Shown here one piece after another: positions 1 to 13,310 of a stretch of 64,000 bases of DNA. This DNA comes from Escherichia coli (GTDB lineage: Bacteria > Pseudomonadota > Gammaproteobacteria > Enterobacterales > Enterobacteriaceae). The translations under genes were made by a program, and so were the position numbers. The notes below the pieces were generated by a model, which ran no database searches, was not told the DNA's origin, and was given only the letters and a program-made list of their open reading frames with translations. Within the stretch, counting starts at the first letter, position 1. Every line of letters starts with the position of its first letter. Where the stretch lies: NCBI RefSeq assembly GCF_003334305.1, contig NZ_QOWS01000003.1; one strand, 5' to 3'.

Positions 1-1
1 C

Positions 2-1543
2 TCATGCATCCTCCATCGGCGTAAACAGGCTACTTTCCATCAGGCGTGGGTGCTTGATAATTGGACGGAAAGCCATATACGGCAGAATGTCGCGCTCAAT
101 CTCCACACCCGGCGCGATTTCAATTAATTCAACGCCTTCTGCCGTTAACTGGAATACTGCGCGTTCAGTGATATACAACACTTCCTGACCACTTTGCTGT
201 GCGTAGGCGGCGCTAAAAGTGATTTTTTCCACCTGGGTAACCAGTTTAGGGATTTGACCTGACTGGGTGATATGCAAGCCATCTGGCGTTACATCAATCT
301 TGCTACCTTTGGCGTCGAACGTGCCGCAGAACACCACTTTACGGGCGTTTTGCGCAATTTCGAGAAATCCGCCGGGGCCAATCAGATTGCCATTGAGATG
401 GGAGACGTTGACGTTACCGTACTGATCCATCTCTCCCATGCCGAGGAAGGTGATATCGATCCCTCCGCCACTGTAGAACTCAAATTGATCGAGTGATGGA
501 ATAATGGCATCGGCGTTGCGGGCACAACCAAACAGAGCATCATCAAGCATCATGCCGTTATGTACGCCTTGCTCGACGCTCAGCCATAAACTTTGGTAAG
601 GAACGCCTTCGCGCAGCGCTACGCCTGGAATACCGCCAGGAATACCAAAGCCAAAGTTGGTTGAAGCGCCAGCCACCAGTTCGCGTGCTGCCCGACGGGC
701 AATCAGGCGGCGCACCGGATGACTAACCAGTTCAATAGCGTCGTTAGAACTCAGACGGCGATGTTGACCGCTAATGGTCAGGTCGTAACCGCCAAGATAG
801 GTTTGCGGTTGTTCGCGGTGTTCAACGATGCCATCAACCAGAATGCCCGGTAATTTGACCCGGCGTGGTTCAATCGCGCCAGCTTCCAGCACATCGCGTA
901 CCTGTACGAACACTTTGCCGCCGCTGTTGTGTGCTGCCAGCGCCATGGAATAGCTATCCATATCAATCGCTTCTTCTTCAAGGCTGACGTTGCCTCGAGG
1001 ATCGGCATAAGTGCCACGCAAAATCGCGTAATCCACTTTGAAAGGGCGATAACGAAGTTTGGTTTCACCATCGATTTCAATCAGTTCTACCAGGTCGTCG
1101 GTAGTGCATTCATTCGACTTACCGCCGCCATTGCGTGGATCAACAAACGATCCCAGCCCAACGTGGGTAAAAAGCCCCGGACGTCCGGCGCCGATCTCCC
1201 GTAGCAGTGCCTGAATCACGCCACCAGGAAAGCAGTAGGCTTCAATCGTGTTATTTTTTACCAGCGCCTGCATTTTGGGCGACCAGGTAAAGTGCCCGGC
1301 AATAATGCGTTTGAGCATCTCTGCGTGCGCAAAACGATTAGTGCCTTTGCAGTCGCGATCGCCAATACCCAGCGAGTGGATTAGCGTCAGGTCGCGAGGG
1401 TGTCCGGTTTGCAGGAAACGCGCTTCAATAGCAGCCAGAATATGGTCCGCTTCCACCATACCGCCGCCGTTACCGCTAATAGCAATAGTCGCACCGTCCT
1501 GAATTTGCGCCGCCAGTGCCTCGGCGGTTGTTATCTTACGCAT
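2..1543 (-). CDS. family I CoA-transferase, fused alpha/beta (YdiF / acetate-CoA-transferase-like), 513 aa
   Basis: Complete ORF with ATG at 1541-1543 and stop at 2-4; glycine-rich motifs typical of CoA-transferases (ISGNGGG, GFGIPGG); last gene of a four-gene minus-strand cluster. Confidence 0.7.
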   Translation of the reverse strand: MRKITTAEALAAQIQDGATIAISGNGGGMVEADHILAAIEARFLQTGHPRDLTLIHSLGIGDRDCKGTNRFAHAEMLKRIIAGHFTWSPKMQALVKNNTIEAYCFPGGVIQALLREIGAGRPGLFTHVGLGSFVDPRNGGGKSNECTTDDLVELIEIDGETKLRYRPFKVDYAILRGTYADPRGNVSLEEEAIDMDSYSMALAAHNSGGKVFVQVRDVLEAGAIEPRRVKLPGILVDGIVEHREQPQTYLGGYDLTISGQHRRLSSNDAIELVSHPVRRLIARRAARELVAGASTNFGFGIPGGIPGVALREGVPYQSLWLSVEQGVHNGMMLDDALFGCARNADAIIPSLDQFEFYSGGGIDITFLGMGEMDQYGNVNVSHLNGNLIGPGGFLEIAQNARKVVFCGTFDAKGSKIDVTPDGLHITQSGQIPKLVTQVEKITFSAAYAQQSGQEVLYITERAVFQLTAEGVELIEIAPGVEIERDILPYMAFRPIIKHPRLMESSLFTPMEDA

Positions 1544-1552
1544 ACAATTTCC

Positions 1553-2335
1553 TTATTGATTATGGAAGCTTACGCTACTTTTTTCGGCAAAGGCGCGCGT
1601 CGCCTGCTGGCAATCCTGAGTGGCGGACATTAATCCGGCCAGTAGCTGGTGCGGGTAATCGGCATGTTTATTTTCCAGTGCCAGAATCAGTTGCTTAATA
1701 TGTGCAAGCGCCACCGGACCGCATTTTTCCAGCTGCGCTAACTGGTTCGCCATCCAGCTTTCCACCTGTTCTTTTTCTACCACTTCATCAATTAAATTCG
1801 CCGCCTGGGCTTCCTGCGCCGTCAGGCGTTTACCCAGCATCAGCATCTGGCGACCGACCACCGGACCAACCTGATTAAGCACACGTTCAATGCCCATCCA
1901 GCCAGGCACCATGCCGAGCATCACTTCCGGGTTAGAGAATTTCGCGCCGGGGCGGGCAATACGAATATCGCAGCACAAGGCAAGTTCAATACCACCGCCG
2001 ATGGTATGACCGTTGAGATTCGCAACGGTTAATTGGGGTAAGTTGCGCAGGCGATTAAAAACGTCATTACCGCGTTTAATCCATTTTCTGCCCATATCTA
2101 ATGGCGAATAGGCTGACCACGATTTAATATCGCCACCCGCACAAAAGAATTTATCGCCGGTTGCCGTTAATTCGACTAATCGTAATGTGGTGTCGTTTTC
2201 AATTTCATTTAAATAATGGTCGAGAGATTCGATCATCTCTTCGTTAATAGCATGACATTTATCTTCACGGTTCAATGTCAGGCGGCAGGAAGCTGCCGCT
2301 CTGCTGAACAGAACGGGTTGGTCACTCATGATCAT
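1553..2335 (-). CDS. enoyl-CoA hydratase/isomerase (crotonase superfamily), 260 aa
   Basis: ORF-track protein has crotonase-like core (GGGIELALCCDIRIA); 9-nt gap to downstream CoA-transferase; alternative ATG two codons downstream. Confidence 0.7.
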   Translation of the reverse strand: MIMSDQPVLFSRAAASCRLTLNREDKCHAINEEMIESLDHYLNEIENDTTLRLVELTATGDKFFCAGGDIKSWSAYSPLDMGRKWIKRGNDVFNRLRNLPQLTVANLNGHTIGGGIELALCCDIRIARPGAKFSNPEVMLGMVPGWMGIERVLNQVGPVVGRQMLMLGKRLTAQEAQAANLIDEVVEKEQVESWMANQLAQLEKCGPVALAHIKQLILALENKHADYPHQLLAGLMSATQDCQQATRAFAEKSSVSFHNQ

Positions 2336-2338
2336 TCC

Positions 2339-3181
2339 TTAACAATAATGCGCGATGCGATCGACGCTAATATCCAGCGTGCTGTTAATATCTTTCTGCC
2401 ACCAGTAAGGCGAGAATATTTCCAGTTCAATAGCACCATTAAATCCGGCGTTTTCAACCAGCCGACGAATTGACGGAATATTGATGACGCCATCTCCCGG
2501 CATACCACGGTCATTGACCAGATCAGTGGTCGGCACTAACCAGTCGGAAACATGAAACGCGAGGATGCGTTTTCCGGCACGCAGGATCTGACTGGCGAGA
2601 TCCGGGTCCCACCAAACATGGTAGACATCTACCGCCACGCCGAGGCCAAATTCGCCATCGGGATCGAGTTCATCACACCAGTCCAGCGCCTGACGTAACG
2701 TGCACAGACAGGAACGATCGGCTGCGGTCATCGGGTGCAGCGGCTCCAGTGCAATTGGCACGCCGACATCTTTCGAATGTGGCAGCAACTGGCGAATCCC
2801 TTGTTTCACTTGTTCCCGCGCTTCATATAGATCTTTAGTGCCCGTTGGCAGACCGCCAACCACCTGCATATAACAGGCGGCATTCAGTACAGCGGCGTCG
2901 TCCAGCGCCCGGCGGTTATCGTCAATCGCCAGTTTGCGCTCCGCCAGCGTCGGTGCGGTGTAGTAGGTGCTACGGCACAAACCGGAAACGTTCATCTTAC
3001 TGGCGGCAAGCTGACGGGCGATCTGCTGGAGATCTTCGCCCTGCAACTCCCTGCGCCAGGGGGCAATTGCGCCAATACCGCGTGCAGCGCAGGCATCAAT
3101 AATGGCGGGTAGCGGCGTTTTATAGCCCAGTGTTGCGGTATTGATACTGAATAAATCCGGGCGTTGTAACAGATCTCTCAT
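2339..3181 (-). CDS. sugar-phosphate isomerase/epimerase-like TIM-barrel protein (xylose-isomerase-like fold), 280 aa
   Basis: ORF-track protein resembles the AP-endonuclease-2 / xylose-isomerase-like TIM-barrel family; tightly packed in the same operon (3-nt gap to hydratase). Confidence 0.55.
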   Translation of the reverse strand: MRDLLQRPDLFSINTATLGYKTPLPAIIDACAARGIGAIAPWRRELQGEDLQQIARQLAASKMNVSGLCRSTYYTAPTLAERKLAIDDNRRALDDAAVLNAACYMQVVGGLPTGTKDLYEAREQVKQGIRQLLPHSKDVGVPIALEPLHPMTAADRSCLCTLRQALDWCDELDPDGEFGLGVAVDVYHVWWDPDLASQILRAGKRILAFHVSDWLVPTTDLVNDRGMPGDGVINIPSIRRLVENAGFNGAIELEIFSPYWWQKDINSTLDISVDRIAHYC

Positions 3182-3190
3182 GATTCAGCC

Positions 3191-3982
3191 TCAGAAGCGC
3201 GGCATACTTAAGCCGCCGTCGATGGCGACCGCCTGACCACAGGTGTAAATCAGTTTACCTTCCGCCATCGCGCGGACGGTGGAAGCAATATCAGCCGGAT
3301 AACCCCAACGTCCCCACGGCACCAGACCTTTGGCAATCAGTTCGTCGTAATAAGCCGTTGCCGGAATAGTCATATCAGTTTTGATGAGACCTGGGCGCAC
3401 TTCATAAACGCCAATTTGTTCATTACAAAGGCGAGCAGCAAATAGACGAGCAGCGGCAGAAACGGCGGTTTTGGCAATGGTGTATTCGCCGCGATTCATC
3501 GCCAGCATGATGGCGTTGATGGAACTGACGAAAATAATCGAGCGGTGCGGCAGTTCCGCTTCCGGTTTCGGCTGTGCCAGTAAGCGCTTACTGAATGCCT
3601 GAGCAAGGAAGAACGGCGCGCGGGTGTTAATGGCAATGTTTTGATCGAAGCTGTCTGGTTCGAGGTCGAGGAGGTCACCGCGTTTTTTCACTGAAATCCC
3701 GGCGTTATTGAGCAGGCAGTCCAGACGCCCCCACTGGTTTTGCGCCGCGTCGAGCATCTCTTCATGCAAGGAGAGATCGCCGACATCGGCAGGGAAGCAA
3801 ATGACTTCCACGCCTTCTGCCAAACATTCTTGTTGTGTGATATGCAGTTTTTCTACGCTGTCGGCATCGGGACGATCGTTAATCAGCAGGTTAAACCCGC
3901 CACGAGCAAGCTCCAGCGCACAGCCCTTTCCAATACCACGAGCGGCTCCGGTAATCACGGCAACTGGACGAGTGGATTTCAT
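3191..3982 (-). CDS. short-chain dehydrogenase/reductase (SDR), 263 aa
   Basis: N-terminal TGAARGIGKG Rossmann motif and Y-x3-K catalytic motif (YTIAK); first gene of the minus-strand cluster, divergent from the TetR gene. Confidence 0.75.
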   Translation of the reverse strand: MKSTRPVAVITGAARGIGKGCALELARGGFNLLINDRPDADSVEKLHITQQECLAEGVEVICFPADVGDLSLHEEMLDAAQNQWGRLDCLLNNAGISVKKRGDLLDLEPDSFDQNIAINTRAPFFLAQAFSKRLLAQPKPEAELPHRSIIFVSSINAIMLAMNRGEYTIAKTAVSAAARLFAARLCNEQIGVYEVRPGLIKTDMTIPATAYYDELIAKGLVPWGRWGYPADIASTVRAMAEGKLIYTCGQAVAIDGGLSMPRF

Positions 3983-4047
3983 ACAATAACCCTCTTTTGA
4001 ATATCGTTTTCTTTAGTGATGATTAGCTTGCGACTGGCAGGTAAAAA

Positions 4048-4071
4048 GATCAACCATCTAGTTGGTTGATC
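4048..4071. promoter_or_regulatory. 24-bp near-perfect palindrome GATCAACCAtctagTTGGTTGATC in the SDR/TetR divergent intergenic region; candidate TetR operator
   Basis: Read directly in sequence between the divergent SDR start (3982) and the TetR gene. Confidence 0.5.
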
Positions 4072-4191
4072 TGCGAGAGTGATCACAGGTAATTTGATAA
4101 CTCAATGAAATTACGACTTTTATCCTTTTTGCTGTCGCTGAGATCAAATCCGGTTATGATAGCCATCACGAAGAGGAAGTGGGGAAGTGGA

Positions 4192-4830
4192 ATGTATCTT
4201 GATACCAGTCACGCACAAAACCTGAAGGAAAAATTGCTGCTATGTGCGGTTAATGAATTTGCCGAATATGGTTATGAAGGGGCCAGAGTAGATAATATTG
4301 TTAAGGCAGCAGGGTGTAGTAAACAGACGGTTTATCACCACTTTGGTAATAAAGAAAATTTGTTTATTGAAGTACTGGAATATACCTGGAACGATATTCG
4401 CGAAAAAGAGAGAGAGCTTGACATTTCAGGGCTTTCTCCGGTTATTGCGATCGAGAAAATAATTGATTTTACTTGGGATTATTACATCAATAATCCGTGG
4501 TTTTTAAAAATTGTCCATAGTGAAAACCAAAGTAAGGGTGTGCATTATAAAAAATCAAAACGCCTCGCTGAAATTAACCATGCACATTTGCAGTCAATGG
4601 CTTCGTTATTAGAAGAAGGGCAGCGACAGAAAACCTTTAAGAAAGATATTGATCCCTTACAAATCAATATTAATATCGCCGCACTGGGTGCATATTATTT
4701 AATAAACCAGTACACACTGGGGATGGTTTATCACATTAGCATGGTTTCACCTGAGGCTTTGGAAGCCAGACGCAGAGTGATCAAAGAGACCATCCTGAGC
4801 TGGCTTTTGGTGAACCCTGCCCGTGGGTAA
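4192..4830 (+). CDS. TetR-family transcriptional regulator (about 212 aa from ATG 4192; ORF track offers upstream ATG 4105)
   Basis: TetR-type N-terminal HTH ([19 protein letters not shown]); GGAAG Shine-Dalgarno upstream of ATG 4192; the 29-aa extension from 4105 looks non-native; divergent from the catabolic cluster. Confidence 0.65.
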
Positions 4831-5460
4831 TCAGCGTGCGCGGATGAAATTACCATCAGGTTGGCGGGTGAACAGTACTTGCTGATTATTTCCCGTATCA
4901 ATGGTTAAGCCGGTAACCACCCCATTCGCATTTTGACGGATTTTAACAATCTGACCATTTTGCAGGTTACTGAGCGGTTTATCCGCGCCCTCGACCTGGG
5001 CCATAGCGTACACATCTGTAGGCGGCAAATTATGGTCGCGGAACAGCTGGGCAAGGGTCTTGCCTGGTTCTACGCGATATGTCCGCCACTGTTGATCGAT
5101 ACCACTTTCCGGTTGGAAAGATTGTGTCTCTGCAACAGGTGGCTCTTCAGGTTGACCTTCCTGAATAGGTTCCGGCGCGACCGGGGCGACCTGATCCGGA
5201 TCGTTTTGCGGCGTCACTAAATGTGCCTGTAGCTGTGCTTCACCTGGGGGGGGTGATTGCATATCTAACTGCGCTTCGCGGGTGACAACAGGCATCTGGC
5301 GTGTTTCATCTCCAGGCAGAAGAATACCGATAATCAGCACTATTGCCGCAATAATGATTCCCCGGCGATGCATCGGCGGCAACGGGTCCATGAGGCGAAA
5401 GTTATCTGGTGCGTGCCAGATTTTCACCAGAGTTGGTTTTAGTTCAAAGCGCCCAGGCAT
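4831..5460 (-). CDS. ytfB: OapA/LysM-domain cell-division protein YtfB
   Basis: Protein MPGRFELKPTLVKIWHAPDNF... recognised as E. coli YtfB; ATG 5458-5460 preceded by GGAGG; ORF-track start 5493 is an upstream alternative. Confidence 0.85.
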   Translation of the reverse strand: MPGRFELKPTLVKIWHAPDNFRLMDPLPPMHRRGIIIAAIVLIIGILLPGDETRQMPVVTREAQLDMQSPPPGEAQLQAHLVTPQNDPDQVAPVAPEPIQEGQPEEPPVAETQSFQPESGIDQQWRTYRVEPGKTLAQLFRDHNLPPTDVYAMAQVEGADKPLSNLQNGQIVKIRQNANGVVTGLTIDTGNNQQVLFTRQPDGNFIRAR

Positions 5461-5678
5461 GGTTTTCCTCCAGCTCCGCGTCGTGTTCCTCAATCATAGC
5501 GCAGTAATAAGCTAACGCTATGATGTCCGTGGTATTACCGCTGTTTTTGTATTCATGCGGATTATCCCTATTGTTTCTGTTTCCCTGGGATTTGTCACTC
5601 ATCCCGCGACAAAGTTTTACCAGAAGAAGCGTGGCTGATATCCTGCCCGCTACTTTATACCCTAAGAAAGGAAATACG

Positions 5679-6299
5679 ATGACCACCCCAACTTTTGACA
5701 CCATCGAAGCGCAAGCAAGCTACGGCATTGGTTTGCAGGTAGGGCAACAACTGAGTGAATCTGGCCTGGAAGGGCTGCTGCCAGAAGCACTGGTTGCAGG
5801 TATTGCCGATGCGCTGGAAGGCAAACATCCGGCTGTTCCGGTTGATGTGGTGCATCGCGCGCTGCGTGAAATCCACGAGCGCGCCGATGCCGTTCGTCGT
5901 CAGCGTTTCCAGGCGATGGCTGCTGAAGGTGTGAAATACCTGGAAGAAAACGCCAAAAAAGAAGGTGTGAATAGCACCGAATCTGGCCTGCAATTCCGCG
6001 TGATCAACCAGGGTGAAGGCGCAATTCCGGCACGTACCGACCGCGTTCGTGTTCATTACACCGGTAAACTGATCGACGGCACCGTGTTTGACAGCTCCGT
6101 TGCTCGTGGTGAACCCGCTGAATTTCCGGTTAATGGCGTGATCCCTGGCTGGATTGAAGCACTGACTCTGATGCCGGTAGGTTCTAAATGGGAACTGACT
6201 ATCCCGCAGGAACTGGCATATGGCGAGCGCGGCGCAGGCGCATCCATCCCTCCGTTCAGTACCCTGGTGTTTGAAGTCGAACTGCTGGAAATTCTCTAA
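5679..6299 (+). CDS. fklB: FKBP-type peptidyl-prolyl cis-trans isomerase
   Basis: Protein [20 protein letters not shown]... recognised as FklB (206 aa); ATG 5679 with AAGGAAA Shine-Dalgarno; ORF-track start 5520 is an upstream extension. Confidence 0.9.
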
Positions 6300-11366: not shown

Positions 11367-13310
11367 TTACTTACTCAAATCCACCTGATAAATCGCAAAC
11401 CCGATATCATCGGTCGCGACTTTATTCATCGGATATTGCCCTTTCTCTTTAATAAACGCTGCGGCTTTATCTGACGGGGAAGTTTCGAAACGGATATCCA
11501 GTTTCTTATCGCCAGCAATCGGTGCTAAACGCCAGTTGTTATCTGCCGCCGGGTGAATTTCCCCCGCACGCTTCGACTCATCAGCAATCCACGCTGCCAG
11601 CACCGAGCGGTTCTCATCCGGTGAAGCAAAAGCGATATGGCTGTCGCCCGTACCGGCAAATTTGCCACCGTAAGCGCGATAGTTATTGGTGGCAACCAGG
11701 AACATAGCGTTCGGATCAATCGGCTTGCCATTAAAGGTCAGGTTCTTAATCCGCTCTGCATTGGCATTAATCATCTGGCACTCGCCGTCATAACGGGCGG
11801 GTTGGGTAACATCAATCTGATAATTCACACCATCAATAACATCAAAGTTATAAGTGCGGAAACCATCCCAGTTGATGAGTGACTGTGGTTTCGTGCTGTT
11901 AGGATCAATCTGGTTAAACTGTCCGGCGGAGCACTCCAGCCACTCTTTCACCTCTTTACCGCTGGCTTTCACCACAATCAGTGTATTGGGGTAGAGATAA
12001 AGATCGGCGGCATTACGGAAGGTCAACTGGCCTTTTTCCACCTCCACATAGCTTGCCGGGTCATTTTTGCGACCACCAACTTTAAACGGTGCGGCAGCTG
12101 AAAGCACCGGCAGTTTTGCCAGATCCGGATCGCCCTGAATGTAATGTTCGACATACGCTTTTTGCGCGTTGTTCACCACCTGCACGGTCGGATCGTCCTG
12201 CACCAGTGCCAGATAGCTATACATATTGTCGGCAGATTTACCGATTGGCTTGCTGACGAACTGGCGTGTGGCATCGTGATCGGCTTTGAGTGTTTCTACC
12301 AGCTTGCTGTCTTCCGCCGCGAGGGATTTTTTATTAGCGATGTCGTAAATCGGTCGTGCTTCCGCTTTCGCCTGCGTCACCTGCCATTTACCGCTGTCAT
12401 TACTGAGTTGTAAGTCGACCACACCAAGATGATCGCCCCACATGCCTGGCATTACCGCCGGAACACCATTCAGCGTGCCTTTCGCGATATCAGCTCCTTC
12501 GATATCAGCAAAATCTTTACTTGGGAAAACGGCGTGAGCATGGCCAAACATAATGGCGTCAACACCCGGAATTTCACTGAGATAATAAACTGAGTTTTCC
12601 GCCATCACTTTATACGGATCGGCAGACAGCCCGGAATGCGCCAGAACGACAACGAGATCGGCACCTTTCTCACGCATTTCAGGCACGTATTTGCGCACAG
12701 TTTCTGTTATATCGTTAACGGTGACTTTGCCGGACAAATTGGCTTTATCCCACCCCATAATCTGCGGCGGCACGACGCCAATATAGCCAATCTTTAACGT
12801 CTGTTTTTTTCCGTCTTTATCGACCACTTCGGTGTCTTTAATTAAATACGGTGTAAACATGGGCTGTTTGGTTTTTGCGTCAATGACGTTGGCATTTACA
12901 TAAGGGAATTTCGCTCCTGCCAACGCATTTTTCAGGTAATCCAGACCGTAGTTAAACTCGTGGTTGCCAAGCGTGCCGACGGTATAGTCCAGCGTATTTA
13001 ATGCCTTATAGACCGGGTGAATATCTCCGGCTTTTAATCCTTTCGCCGACATGTAATCGGCCAGCGGACTTCCCTGGATCAAGTCGCCGTTATCCACCAG
13101 CACGCTATTTTTGACTTCATTGCGGGCATCGTTAATCAGGCTTGCGGTGCGTACCAGTCCGAACTTTTCCGTGGCGGTGTCTTTGTAATAATCGAAATCC
13201 ATCATGTTGCTATGCAGATCAGTGGTTTCCATGATACGCAGATCGACCGTCGCTGCATTCACACTGGCGGCAATCAGCGTGGCCAGGAGCGTTGCGCTAA
13301 ACTTAATCAT
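11367..13310 (-). CDS. cpdB: periplasmic 2',3'-cyclic-nucleotide 2'-phosphodiesterase / 3'-nucleotidase
   Basis: Protein recognised as CpdB with signal peptide and metallophosphatase motifs; start may be 13310 (MIKF...) or 13319 (ORF track). Confidence 0.9.

What the first reader, a model, noticed from the sequence alone, without database searches (positions are those of the whole stretch)
2..4830. Accessory TetR-regulated CoA-dependent catabolic cluster next to ytfB, apparently absent from K-12
Four tightly packed minus-strand genes (SDR oxidoreductase, xylose-isomerase-like TIM-barrel protein, enoyl-CoA hydratase, fused family I CoA-transferase; gaps of 3-9 nt) are divergently paired with a TetR regulator. 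In K-12, as I recall, ytfB is preceded by ytfA and yjfZ, not by these enzymes. The enzyme set suggests activation of a hydroxy- or keto-carboxylic acid (possibly sugar-acid or cyclitol derived) to a CoA thioester, followed by redox and hydration/isomerisation steps. I cannot assign the substrate from sequence alone. This is the best candidate in the window for an uncharacterised system.
Basis: partly seen in the sequence, partly recalled or inferred. Interest (0 to 1): 0.7.

Follow-up and report, generated by a model that had tools for sequence, protein, structure and literature searches.

The report
Orphan sugar-acid operon lost from K-12
This is a real, well-conserved but functionally uncharacterised E. 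coli operon, probably for importing and breaking down a glucuronate-like sugar acid partly through CoA thioesters; about 57% of E. coli strains carry it and K-12 has lost it.

Summary
Window 2-4830 holds four tightly packed minus-strand genes: a fused family I CoA-transferase, a crotonase, an AP_endonuc_2 TIM barrel and an SDR. They face a divergent TetR gene, and all five Pfam calls check out. K-12 lacks the enzymes. Three corrections apply. (1) The window edge cuts the operon. It continues with a 693-aa stand-alone FrdA/SdhA-like flavoprotein, whose start overlaps the CoA-transferase stop, and a TRAP transporter, up to rplI. (2) It is not an insertion. The same operon fills the same ytfB-rplI slot in Salmonella and Klebsiella, and K-12 keeps remnants (a 112-bp SDR fragment and ytfA, which is the truncated TetR). 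(3) The locus is trimorphic in 5,426 complete E. coli genomes: TRAP version 1,446, MFS version 1,686, yjfZ/deleted about 2,500. The transporters point to a hexuronate-type carboxylate. The binding protein shares seven ligand-contact residues with a Vibrio protein encoded in a UxaC/UxuAB cluster. Relatives show a core of SDR, TIM barrel and flavoprotein, with the CoA-transferase and hydratase as an add-on. Enzyme genes are under strong purifying selection (dN/dS 0.03-0.07). No characterised homologue or paper was found, so the substrate and the order of steps are inferred.

The parts
2..1543 (-). Fused (alpha+beta) family I CoA-transferase, 513 aa, paralogue of E. coli YdiF. Last operon gene inside the window. 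Its TGA (4..2) overlaps the ATG (5..3) of the next gene, a 693-aa FrdA/SdhA-like flavoprotein lying left of the window, which is followed by TRAP dctQ, dctM and dctP up to rplI.
   Evidence: ORF; Pfam CoA_trans; PDB 2ahu YdiF E 2.8e-114 over residues 6-508, with catalytic Glu333 of YdiF aligned to Glu324; ATGA overlap; downstream genes in the 100%-identical strain H15 and in CPF6.
1553..2329 (-). Crotonase-family enoyl-CoA hydratase/dehydratase, 258 aa
   Evidence: ORF; Pfam ECH_1 7e-45; below every NCBIfam equivalog cut-off; closest solved relative is 3-hydroxypropionyl-CoA dehydratase 5zai, 3.6e-40; sequence shows GGGIE and NPE motifs at the places of the two catalytic glutamates (read by eye; reference positions from memory); dN/dS 0.05-0.07.
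2339..3181 (-). Xylose-isomerase-like (AP_endonuc_2) TIM-barrel protein, 280 aa, of the uncharacterised SMc04130 family; predicted metal-dependent isomerase, epimerase or beta-eliminase acting next to a carbonyl
   Evidence: Pfam AP_endonuc_2 1.6e-37; 50% identical to SMc04130 structures 3qc0/3ju2 and 41% to 7vpf, all of unassigned function; invariant E146, D185, H210, E252 in alignment A1; model pLDDT 87; next folds are IolI, ketose 3-epimerases, QuiC1 and YcjR at 14-22% identity.
3191..3982 (-). Classical short-chain dehydrogenase/reductase, 263 aa, first gene of the operon
   Evidence: Pfam adh_short and adh_short_C2; NCBIfam PRK12745 419.8 bits against a cut-off of 250, an uninformative '3-ketoacyl-ACP reductase' name; TGAARGIG and YTIAK motifs in the sequence; PDB 4da9 and 4one, E about 1e-56, unassigned.
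3983..4191 (.). Divergent control region between the SDR and TetR genes, holding the candidate TetR operator: a 26-bp palindrome AGATCAACCATCT|AGTTGGTTGATCT at 4047-4072, plus a conserved GTGATCAC box
   Evidence: Inverted repeat 13+13 nt, 92% complementary, no spacer; the only match with up to 6 mismatches in the 64-kb window, and the single best match falls in the TetR-operon intergenic region in other E. coli alleles, Salmonella, Klebsiella and Sodalis, and more weakly in ESNIH1 and Rhodocyclaceae. No consensus sigma-70 promoter found.
4192..4830 (+). TetR-family regulator (full-length form of the K-12 pseudogene ytfA), 212 aa; this strain carries a deeply divergent allele
   Evidence: Pfam TetR_N 2.9e-14 and TetR_C_29 1.3e-31; K-12 aligns only from window 4447 onward and annotates a TetR pseudogene 'missing N-terminus'; ytfA is listed as a TetR-family gene present in only some E. 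coli (PMC6790063); 83% amino-acid identity and dS about 1 to the common E. coli allele.

Best explanation
The window holds the promoter-proximal two thirds of a TetR-repressed catabolic operon (ytfA | SDR, TIM barrel, hydratase, CoA-transferase, FrdA/SdhA-like flavoprotein, transporter). The operon is ancestral at the ytfB-rplI position in Enterobacteriaceae and has been lost from K-12. SHOWN: gene content, families and catalytic residues; conservation and purifying selection; the conserved operator palindrome; a carboxylate transporter (uronate-type TRAP, or ACS-family MFS) always linked to the enzymes; K-12 as a deletion derivative. INFERRED: the substrate is a hexuronate-type ring hydroxy-carboxylate, meaning D-glucuronate or a close analogue. 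It is imported by the TRAP or MFS system and, directly or as a CoA ester, releases the TetR repressor from the palindrome. The core chemistry, shared with relatives that lack the CoA genes, would be as follows. The SDR oxidises a hydroxyl to a ketone. The metal-dependent TIM barrel (E-D-H-E site) then isomerises, epimerises or beta-eliminates next to that ketone. The stand-alone flavoprotein carries out a C-C/C=C two-electron step next to the carboxyl group, most likely as a reductase, because relatives are fused to an OYE FMN domain or encoded beside a flavodoxin. In Escherichia, Salmonella and Klebsiella a YdiF-like CoA-transferase (Glu324) converts the acid or a 3-oxo-acid intermediate to its thioester, and the crotonase adds or removes a beta-hydroxyl. 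There is no thiolase or ligase, so CoA would be recycled by the transferase. The order of steps and the end product are not determined.
For: Families and residues. Operon extent and translational coupling. Same operon in the same slot in K. oxytoca, S. enterica and K. huaxiensis. Synteny in Sodalis and Rhodocyclaceae. Purifying selection. K-12 remnants. Operator. Substrate class: the TRAP binding protein's best solved relatives are 4ovr, 4x8r, 4n8y, 4n15 and 4mij at E 1e-60 to 1e-72, of which 4X8R binds glucuronate and 4N8Y galacturonate (PMC11668362); a 59%-identical V. cholerae relative lies in a KdgK-UxaC-UxuB-GH31-DctMQP-GH2-GntR-UxuA cluster; all seven positions matched to the glucuronate-contact residues reported for STM3169 (PMC7660916) are identical in operon-linked and Vibrio-tier proteins; the alternative transporter is an ACS-family MFS, TIGR00893, 315 bits. 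Core versus add-on: Brenneria (SDR-TIM-flavoprotein-MFS) and ESNIH1 (SDR-GFO-TIM-MFS-flavoprotein) lack the CoA-transferase and hydratase; L090 has TetR|SDR-flavoprotein. Reductase hint: an OYE+FAD_binding_2 fusion flanked by a TIM barrel and an SDR, and a flavodoxin next to the Sodalis gene. Flavoprotein fold is FrdA/SdhA.
Against: No enzyme of the operon has a characterised close homologue, so every step is assigned from family-level chemistry. The flavoprotein lacks the catalytic Arg and His of fumarate reductase and aspartate oxidase, so its reaction and direction are guesses. In the Burkholderiales variant an acyl-CoA dehydrogenase takes its place, which would fit an oxidative role equally well. 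The transporter evidence is not uniform: Brenneria has a PcaK-like aromatic-acid MFS, and the related GFO-DUF993-TIM triads sit beside unrelated ABC transporters. A binding protein at 45-59% identity to uronate binders may have a different ligand. E. coli already catabolises hexuronates through UxaC/UxuAB, so a second route needs a reason. In the 100%-identical strain H15 the TRAP permease gene is broken by IS3, so the system may not work in this particular strain.
Confidence: 0.45

Rival explanations
1. Hydroaromatic route. The substrate is a hydroxylated cyclohexane or cyclohexene carboxylate (quinate or shikimate type, from dietary chlorogenic acids). It would be processed by oxidation (SDR), dehydration (TIM barrel, as in dehydroshikimate dehydratases), CoA activation, beta-elimination (hydratase) and ene-reduction (flavoprotein), that is, a reductive dehydroxylation towards cyclohexanecarboxylate-type products.
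For: The CoA-transferase's closest characterised relative is YdiF. From my memory of the K-12 map, YdiF sits beside ydiB (quinate/shikimate dehydrogenase), aroD (dehydroquinase) and ydiO (acyl-CoA dehydrogenase), which is the same logical set. The QuiC1 dehydroshikimate dehydratase TIM domain is among the fold matches. Brenneria links the core to a PcaK-like aromatic-acid permease, 369 bits. Hosts include wood- and plant-associated Sodalis ligni and Brenneria. Quinate and shikimate are ring carboxylates shaped like pyranuronates, so a uronate-like binding site is not strongly against this.
Against: The seven ligand-contact positions of the binding protein are identical to those of a protein encoded in a UxaC/UxuAB glucuronate cluster. 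The TIM barrel is only about 19% identical to QuiC1, no closer than to epimerases. No aroD, aroE, quiA or pca genes occur in any of the loci examined. No literature link was found.
Confidence: 0.2
2. Thiolase-less beta-oxidation of an ordinary short or medium-chain (hydroxy/keto) acid, as the RefSeq names suggest. The CoA-transferase activates the acid, the flavoprotein desaturates C2-C3, the hydratase adds water, and the SDR ('3-ketoacyl reductase') gives the 3-oxoacyl-CoA. The '3-ketoacid CoA-transferase' then passes CoA to the next substrate molecule and releases a beta-keto acid, which the TIM-barrel protein handles.
For: It accounts for all enzymes of the enteric version, and of the Burkholderiales version where an acyl-CoA dehydrogenase replaces the flavoprotein and DUF993 replaces the hydratase. 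NCBIfam best hits are Staphylococcus FadX for the transferase and short-chain enoyl-CoA hydratase for the crotonase. The absence of a thiolase and a ligase fits a transferase-closed cycle.
Against: It does not explain relatives that have the SDR, TIM barrel and flavoprotein but no transferase or hydratase, nor the uronate-type TRAP and ACS-family sugar-acid permeases. All the NCBIfam hits are far below their equivalog cut-offs. The TIM barrel has no known role with fatty acids.
Confidence: 0.12
3. Not nutrition but an electron sink or detoxification. The flavoprotein is a cytoplasmic terminal reductase for an unsaturated carboxylate (like soluble fumarate, urocanate, acrylate or cinnamate reductases), and the other enzymes prepare or recycle that acceptor. 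The locus would then give an anaerobic redox-balancing advantage in the gut.
For: FrdA-like fold. OYE fusion and flavodoxin neighbour in relatives. Family members occur in strict anaerobes: Succinatimonas, Clostridium bolteae, Halanaerobium, Treponema, Coriobacterium.
Against: The catalytic Arg and His of enoate-reducing FAD_binding_2 enzymes appear to be absent. No FMN_bind or NADH-oxidising domain exists in the enteric protein. The operon has the layout of a substrate-inducible catabolic unit with a dedicated importer.
Confidence: 0.1

Closest known systems
E. coli YdiF (acetate/short-chain acyl-CoA transferase; PDB 2ahu) and, from memory, its ydiB-aroD-ydiF-ydiO neighbourhood in K-12
   Same: Fused alpha/beta family I CoA-transferase aligned over almost its full length (E 2.8e-114), with the catalytic glutamate conserved (E333 = E324). 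Both clusters combine a dehydrogenase, a dehydratase-type enzyme, this transferase, a flavoprotein and MFS-type importers.
   Different: A paralogue, not an orthologue. The ydi cluster has no AP_endonuc_2 TIM barrel, no FrdA-like flavoprotein and no TetR, and its physiological role is itself unsettled. The neighbourhood comparison rests on my memory, not on a tool result.
Hexuronate TRAP transporters (Salmonella STM3169-3171; EFI structures 4X8R and 4N8Y; the V. cholerae UxaC/UxuAB-linked system)
   Same: The operon's DctP-type binding protein is 45-59% identical to these. It keeps both carboxylate-binding arginines, the Asn and the other contact positions, and all seven are identical to the V. 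cholerae protein.
   Different: Those transporters feed the UxaC-UxuB-UxuA-KdgK isomerase pathway. Here none of those enzymes is present, and the transporter is co-transcribed with CoA-dependent and flavin enzymes. Ligand binding was not measured.
SMc04130 family and the Gfo/Idh/MocA-DUF993-TIM barrel triad (structures 3ju2/3qc0 and 4dnh)
   Same: The TIM barrel is 50% identical to SMc04130. 52 of 79 sampled loci pair this TIM barrel with DUF993 and a GFO oxidoreductase, often with a TetR_C_29 regulator.
   Different: The triad has no CoA enzymes or flavoprotein, uses a GFO rather than an SDR oxidoreductase, sits beside varied ABC transporters and is itself uncharacterised.
Complex II flavoproteins, soluble fumarate reductases and L-aspartate oxidase (FAD_binding_2)
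   Same: Four-domain fold with TM 0.65-0.8 to FrdA/SdhA; equivalents of NadB His351 and Arg386 are retained.
   Different: 15-19% identity. Gly stands at the positions of the catalytic Arg (NadB R290) and His244. There is no His for covalent FAD, no Fe-S or membrane subunits in the operon, and a distinct set of invariant capping-domain residues. No characterised member exists.
Klebsiella michiganensis acyl-CoA pathway for 2-deoxy-D-ribonate (Price et al. 2019, PMC6365646)
   Same: A precedent for an enteric bacterium catabolising a sugar acid as CoA thioesters, with MFS importers and a CoA-transferase.
   Different: A different gene set (CoA-synthetase, hydroxyacyl-CoA dehydrogenase, thiolase, glycerate kinase, lactonase), with no TIM barrel, FrdA-like flavoprotein or TetR, at a different locus.

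Membership tests
Family I CoA-transferase (YdiF/SCOT/AtoDA type) | CoA_trans domain architecture with fused alpha and beta halves | tested here: met
   Pfam CoA_trans on residues 5-241; NCBIfam subunit A model on 4-244 and subunit B model on 278-442; aligns to YdiF 17-518.
Family I CoA-transferase (YdiF/SCOT/AtoDA type) | Catalytic glutamate that forms the glutamyl-CoA thioester | tested here: met
   YdiF Glu333 (role from memory of the 2ahu/2ahv work) aligns with Glu324 in the motif SVEQG.
Crotonase superfamily enoyl-CoA hydratase | ECH_1 fold | tested here: met
   Pfam ECH_1 7e-45 on residues 14-257.
Crotonase superfamily enoyl-CoA hydratase | Two catalytic glutamates (hydratase rather than isomerase or hydrolase) | tested here: inconclusive
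   GGGIE and NPE motifs are visible in the translation where rat hydratase has Glu144 and Glu164, but the reference positions are from memory and no reference alignment was made.
Classical SDR | adh_short domain, TGxxxGxG cofactor motif, YxxxK catalytic motif | tested here: met
   Pfam adh_short 8.6e-36; TGAARGIG and YTIAK in the sequence.
FabG (3-oxoacyl-ACP reductase), as RefSeq names the SDR | Reaches the FabG equivalog score, or has a fatty-acid-synthesis context | tested here: not met
   TIGR01830 125 bits against a cut-off of 298 and FabG PRK05653 models below cut-off. Only PRK12745, a sequence-cluster model carrying that name, is passed. The context is catabolic.
Xylose-isomerase-like TIM barrel (AP_endonuc_2) | Domain, fold and the Glu-Asp-His-Glu metal site | tested here: met
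   Pfam 1.6e-37; TM 0.88 to 3qc0; E146, D185, H210 and E252 invariant in A1. Assignment of these four to the metal site is by analogy with ketose 3-epimerases.
TetR-family repressor with divergent target operon | TetR_N HTH plus a ligand domain; palindromic operator in the divergent intergenic region | tested here: met
   TetR_N and TetR_C_29; 26-bp palindrome, unique in the window and positionally conserved across genera. Binding and the inducer were not testable.
Fumarate reductase / succinate dehydrogenase / L-aspartate oxidase | FAD_binding_2 domain and four-domain fold | tested here: met
   Pfam 1.3e-27; Foldseek FrdA/SdhA TM 0.65-0.8. This gene lies left of the window.
Fumarate reductase / succinate dehydrogenase / L-aspartate oxidase | Capping-domain catalytic Arg and substrate His (NadB R290 and H244; FrdA R287 and H232) | tested here: not met
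   phmmer alignments place Gly at both positions (SQFG; AVPGD). That part of the alignment has low confidence, but G276 is invariant across the family.
Fumarate reductase / succinate dehydrogenase / L-aspartate oxidase | Fe-S and membrane-anchor partner subunits encoded alongside (complex II types) | tested here: not met
   None in any of the operon versions examined.
Hexuronate isomerase pathway (Uxa/Uxu regulon) | UxaC, UxuB/UxaB and UxuA/UxaA enzymes linked to the transporter | tested here: not met
   Absent from all operon versions; present next to the 59%-identical V. cholerae binding protein.
DctP-type TRAP transporter for a carboxylate | DctP, DctQ and DctM genes; conserved carboxylate-binding Arg | tested here: met
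   NCBIfam TRAP_S1 252 bits and dctP 248 bits; annotated Q and M genes; R146 and R166 conserved. These lie left of the window, and dctM is split by IS3 in strain H15.
Horizontally acquired genomic island | Present only in some lineages, with mobility genes, a tRNA or repeats at the borders, and absent from the same slot in sister genera | tested here: not met
   The same operon lies between ytfB and rplI in Salmonella, K. oxytoca and K. huaxiensis. K-12 retains SDR and TetR remnants. Enzyme genes have GC 0.53-0.57. No integrase was found.

The most novel reading that the evidence does not exclude
The operon encodes a so far undescribed route for a ring hydroxy-carboxylate (a hexuronate, or a quinate/shikimate-type hydroaromatic) in gut Enterobacteriaceae. 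In this reading the acid is handled as a CoA thioester without thiolase or ATP, and a new, uncharacterised class of stand-alone FrdA/SdhA-like flavoprotein, also widespread in strict gut anaerobes, performs the C=C redox step. That would be a reductive dehydroxylation of sugar or hydroaromatic acids, comparable in logic to bile-acid 7-dehydroxylation. The three locus states in E. coli would then mark a strain-level metabolic niche difference.
Probability: 0.2. Interest if true: 0.72.

Novelty: new variant of a known kind. Interest (0 to 1): 0.5.

Why it matters
More than half of E. coli strains, including B2 uropathogens such as UM146 and NU14, and many Salmonella and Klebsiella, maintain this operon under strong purifying selection. 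The laboratory reference K-12 lacks it, which may explain why it has escaped study. Glucuronate-type acids are abundant in the gut (from glucuronides and glycosaminoglycans) and have been proposed as a carbon source in macrophages, so a second, CoA- and flavin-dependent route would bear on colonisation and strain competition. Three of its protein families (the SMc04130-type TIM barrel, this FrdA-like flavoprotein, and DUF993 in the sister clusters) have no characterised member despite solved structures or thousands of homologues. One solved substrate would therefore annotate many genomes. The three-state polymorphism (TRAP, MFS, deleted) is also a ready-made natural experiment for genotype-phenotype association.

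Tried and rejected
(1) Already characterised? Ten full-text searches found nothing on this operon. The terms included yjfZ/ytfA, the PDB codes 3ju2/3qc0/7vpf/SMc04130, DUF993, product-name combinations, uronate plus CoA-transferase, quinate/shikimate/cyclohexanecarboxylate, and the ydi genes. Only open-access papers are covered. (2) Same as the Klebsiella michiganensis deoxyribonate acyl-CoA cluster? Rejected, because the gene set differs. (3) An OYE/2,4-dienoyl-CoA reductase downstream, my first guess from its length? Rejected, since Pfam gives FAD_binding_2. (4) A canonical fumarate reductase or aspartate oxidase? Rejected, because the catalytic Arg and His are not conserved and there are no partner subunits. 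(5) A genomic island inserted in this strain? Rejected. (6) A Glu-to-Gln change in the binding protein as a specificity switch away from glucuronate? Rejected, because the Gln is universal in the Vibrio-type tier, including a protein in a glucuronate cluster. My residue mapping to STM3169 assumes a constant +4 offset, which is supported by identical spacings but not by a direct alignment. (7) Flanking genes of the GFO-DUF993-TIM and Burkholderiales variants as a substrate clue: too heterogeneous to use. (8) Fold searches for the TIM barrel and the flavoprotein returned only uncharacterised close neighbours. (9) My first operator search pattern was mis-spaced and found nothing; the corrected mismatch scan is. 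(10) The low overall identity to most E. coli (about 92%) looked like a divergent island. It turned out to come only from the TetR-ytfB segment.

Full report
OBSERVATION

- CoA-transferase, 2-1543, 513 aa
- Hydratase, 1553-2329, 258 aa (the longest ORF runs to 2335)
- TIM barrel, 2339-3181, 280 aa
- SDR, 3191-3982, 263 aa

The gaps between them are 3-9 nt. A plus-strand TetR gene ends at 4830, abutting the convergent ytfB. RefSeq starts the TetR gene at 4192 rather than 4105. Pfam confirms all five family calls: CoA_trans, ECH_1, AP_endonuc_2, adh_short, and TetR_N plus TetR_C_29. Only the SDR passes an NCBIfam curated cut-off (PRK12745, an uninformative name). The other four fall far below every equivalog model.

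THE CLUSTER IS LARGER THAN THE WINDOW

The window is 100% identical to E. coli strain H15. In that genome the operon continues leftwards with a 693-aa 'FAD-dependent oxidoreductase', then TRAP dctQ, dctM (split by IS3 in H15) and dctP, and ends at rplI. Strain CPF6 has the same arrangement intact. The flavoprotein's ATG overlaps the CoA-transferase TGA (ATGA, window 5..2), which suggests translational coupling. The functional unit is therefore about 11 kb: ytfA(TetR) | SDR, TIM, ECH, CoA-T, flavoprotein, transporter.

K-12 AND THE POPULATION

K-12 has yjfZ plus a TetR pseudogene 'missing N-terminus' (ytfA) at this position. Direct BLAST shows that K-12 aligns from window 4447 onward and also retains a 112-bp remnant of the 5' end of the SDR gene at 81% identity. 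K-12 is therefore a deletion/replacement derivative.

| State in 5,426 complete E. coli genomes | Genomes |
|---|---|
| At least 80% of window 1-5600 (operon present) | 3,115 |
| TRAP genes | 1,446 |
| ACS-family MFS gene at the same place (includes UM146, NU14) | 1,686 |
| yjfZ | 2,524 |

In Klebsiella oxytoca and Salmonella enterica the same operon, with the MFS, lies in the same ytfB-rplI slot. Klebsiella huaxiensis has the TRAP version there. The locus is therefore ancestral in Enterobacteriaceae, and the frame of 'accessory insertion' should be replaced by 'ancestral locus, repeatedly lost, with transporter replacement'. The enzyme genes are 87-93% identical in protein between genera, with dN/dS of 0.03-0.07.

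REGULATION

The 209-bp divergent region contains a 26-bp near-perfect palindrome at 4047-4072. It is the only such sequence in the 64-kb window. In every enteric locus, in Sodalis, and more weakly in ESNIH1 and a Rhodocyclaceae genome, the single best match lies in the TetR-operon intergenic region. This is good comparative evidence for a TetR operator. Repression and the inducer are inferred.

THE ENZYMES

CoA-transferase: it is a paralogue of E. coli YdiF (E 2.8e-114) with the catalytic Glu conserved (E333 = E324).

TIM barrel: it is 50% identical to SMc04130 (3qc0, 3ju2) and 41% identical to a Paenibacillus 'putative sugar isomerase' (7vpf), none of which has an assigned function. It keeps an invariant E-D-H-E tetrad. 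Beyond those, its fold neighbours are IolI, ketose 3-epimerases, the QuiC1 dehydratase domain and YcjR, at 14-22% identity. Those are enzymes that abstract a proton next to a carbonyl.

Flavoprotein:
- It carries FAD_binding_2.
- A confident model (pLDDT 91) matches the whole FrdA/SdhA architecture (TM 0.65-0.8) at 15-19% identity.
- It retains equivalents of NadB His351 and Arg386, but has Gly at the catalytic Arg290 and at His244, and it has its own invariant capping-domain residues.
- All AlphaFold-database neighbours are unannotated, and several come from strict anaerobes. The family comprises about 420 clusters at 50% identity with E up to 1e-30.

COMPARATIVE ANATOMY

A scan of one genome per species with a TIM-barrel alignment returned 79 loci, which I mapped with tblastn. 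At about 50% identity the TIM barrel most often sits in a (TetR |) Gfo/Idh/MocA, DUF993, TIM triad (52 loci). DUF993 has only an uncharacterised structure, 4dnh. The other arrangements are:

- Burkholderiales and Pseudomonas: CoA-T | ACAD, SDR, DUF993, TIM.
- Enteric type: also found in Sodalis (MFS plus flavodoxin) and in a Rhodocyclaceae genome (TRAP).
- Brenneria: TetR | SDR, TIM, flavoprotein, MFS.
- 'Escherichia sp. ESNIH1': TetR | SDR, GFO, TIM, MFS, flavoprotein.

Neither of the last two has a CoA-transferase or hydratase. A 46% relative of the flavoprotein follows TetR | SDR. In a distant MAG an OYE-FMN + FAD_binding_2 fusion is flanked by an AP_endonuc_2 gene and an SDR. Hence the recurrent core is oxidoreductase plus TIM barrel plus flavoprotein plus carboxylate importer, and the CoA-transferase and hydratase form an add-on module. 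The OYE fusion and the Sodalis flavodoxin hint that the flavoprotein is supplied with electrons, that is, that it acts as a reductase. The substitution by an ACAD in the Burkholderiales variant leaves the direction open.

SUBSTRATE

The best clue is the importer.

- The best solved relatives of the TRAP binding protein (E 1e-60 to 1e-72) are 4ovr, 4x8r, 4n8y, 4n15 and 4mij. Of these, 4X8R binds glucuronate and 4N8Y galacturonate (PMC11668362).
- The STM3169 study gives the glucuronate-contact residues (PMC7660916). With a constant +4 offset, for which all spacings agree, the E. coli protein has N31, Q32, Q70, R146, R166, N206 and D233.
- Its next tier of homologues (53-61% identity; Vibrio, Photobacterium, Aeromonas) has the same residues. 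One of them, from V. cholerae, is encoded inside a KdgK-UxaC-UxuB-GH31-DctMQP-GH2-GntR-UxuA cluster.
- The alternative importer in Salmonella, Klebsiella, Sodalis and many E. coli belongs to the ACS family, which holds the galactonate, hexuronate and glucarate permeases.

The exception is Brenneria's PcaK-like aromatic-acid permease. It keeps a hydroaromatic (quinate/shikimate-type) substrate alive as a rival.

MECHANISM (INFERRED)

The acid is imported and TetR is released. The SDR makes a ketone. The TIM barrel isomerises, epimerises or beta-eliminates next to that ketone. The flavoprotein performs a two-electron step on the carbon-carbon bond next to the carboxyl group. In enterics the YdiF-like transferase makes the thioester, and the crotonase adds or removes the beta-hydroxyl. 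With no thiolase or ligase present, CoA would be passed on by the transferase. For a pyranuronyl-CoA the C4 hydroxyl is the beta-hydroxyl, so crotonase-type elimination followed by flavin-dependent reduction is chemically reasonable. This ordering is my inference, not a result.

COMPARISON WITH KNOWN SYSTEMS

This is not the Uxa/Uxu pathway, because those enzymes are absent. It is not the Klebsiella deoxyribonate acyl-CoA pathway, which has a different gene set. The flavoprotein is not a canonical fumarate reductase or aspartate oxidase. The closest logical parallel is the K-12 ydiB-aroD-ydiF-ydiO neighbourhood (from memory), which contains the paralogous transferase and is itself unresolved. 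Ten literature searches found no study of this operon.

VERDICT

This is a real, conserved, selectively maintained but orphan catabolic operon. Interest is moderate. The parts are ordinary families, but three of them have no characterised member. The combination (sugar-acid-type importer, CoA transferase without thiolase, stand-alone FrdA-like flavoprotein) matches no described pathway, and the three-state polymorphism in E. coli invites direct testing.

Caveat for this strain: in the identical genome H15 the TRAP permease gene is interrupted by IS3, so uptake may be defective.

Noticed in passing
window 3900-5700 (operon promoter region, TetR gene, ytfB, ytfB-fklB spacer): This strain carries a deeply divergent haplotype of the TetR gene and ytfB. 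It is 73-87% identical in DNA to the common E. coli allele, while the flanking enzyme genes and fklB are 96-100% identical. Protein identity is 83% and dS is 1-2, as far as from Salmonella or Klebsiella. The distribution is bimodal: 355 genomes at 95% or more, 2,749 at about 79%, almost none between. RefSeq does not even name this YtfB allele YtfB. It could be an old balanced polymorphism or an import from an unsampled enteric lineage. The operator palindrome is nevertheless conserved.
   Followed up: partly
L001 8031-9193 (strain H15, about 2.8-4 kb left of window position 1): An IS3-family element splits the TRAP large-permease gene dctM in the genome that is 100% identical to the window, so the operon's importer is probably inactive in this strain. 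IS1 insertions in the TRAP or MFS genes appear among the top hits in other strains as well, which suggests recurrent inactivation.
   Followed up: no
L089 8689-11871 (E. coli JA0072) compared with L006 7059-9903 (CPF6); L094 (K. huaxiensis) compared with L087 (K. oxytoca): The importer at the end of the operon is swapped between a TRAP system and an ACS-family MFS, within E. coli and also within Klebsiella, while the enzyme genes stay the same. The E. coli MFS version is followed by a HipA-family toxin-antitoxin pair, and the Salmonella and Klebsiella versions by an EamA-family gene.
   Followed up: partly
L007 3926-5957 (E. coli UCPROB-002): In this operon-less strain the remnant of the TetR gene is further interrupted by an IS609 (IS200/IS605-type) element with a TnpB gene. 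The remnant region keeps accumulating insertions.
   Followed up: no
window 4001-4750: The TetR gene is markedly AT-rich (GC 0.36-0.39) compared with the enzyme genes next to it (0.53-0.57) and with ytfB (0.53).
   Followed up: no
L001 3019-3570 (strain H15, between ulaF and yjfY): A YagU-family gene is present in H15 that is absent at this place in K-12 and CPF6. It is another small presence/absence difference near the locus.
   Followed up: no
proteins P0122 (1078 aa), P0155 (973 aa), P0206 (1043 aa): Some assemblies predict a single protein carrying both CoA_trans and FAD_binding_2 domains. Given the ATGA overlap of the two genes, these may be frameshift or annotation artefacts, or genuine fusions. 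Either way they underline how tightly the two genes are coupled.
   Followed up: no
loci L016-L085 (for example L018 Variovorax, L044 Sinorhizobium, L047 Rhizobium): A very widespread three-gene unit (Gfo/Idh/MocA oxidoreductase, DUF993, SMc04130-type TIM barrel, often with a TetR_C_29 regulator) has two structural-genomics structures (3ju2/3qc0 and 4dnh) but no known function. It is the likely evolutionary source of the TIM-barrel gene in this operon.
   Followed up: partly
window 12601-13200 and other bins: The comparison with strain CPF6 shows a mosaic of 100%-identical and 91-95%-identical 300-nt bins across the downstream core genes, consistent with frequent recombination in this chromosomal region.
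   Followed up: no
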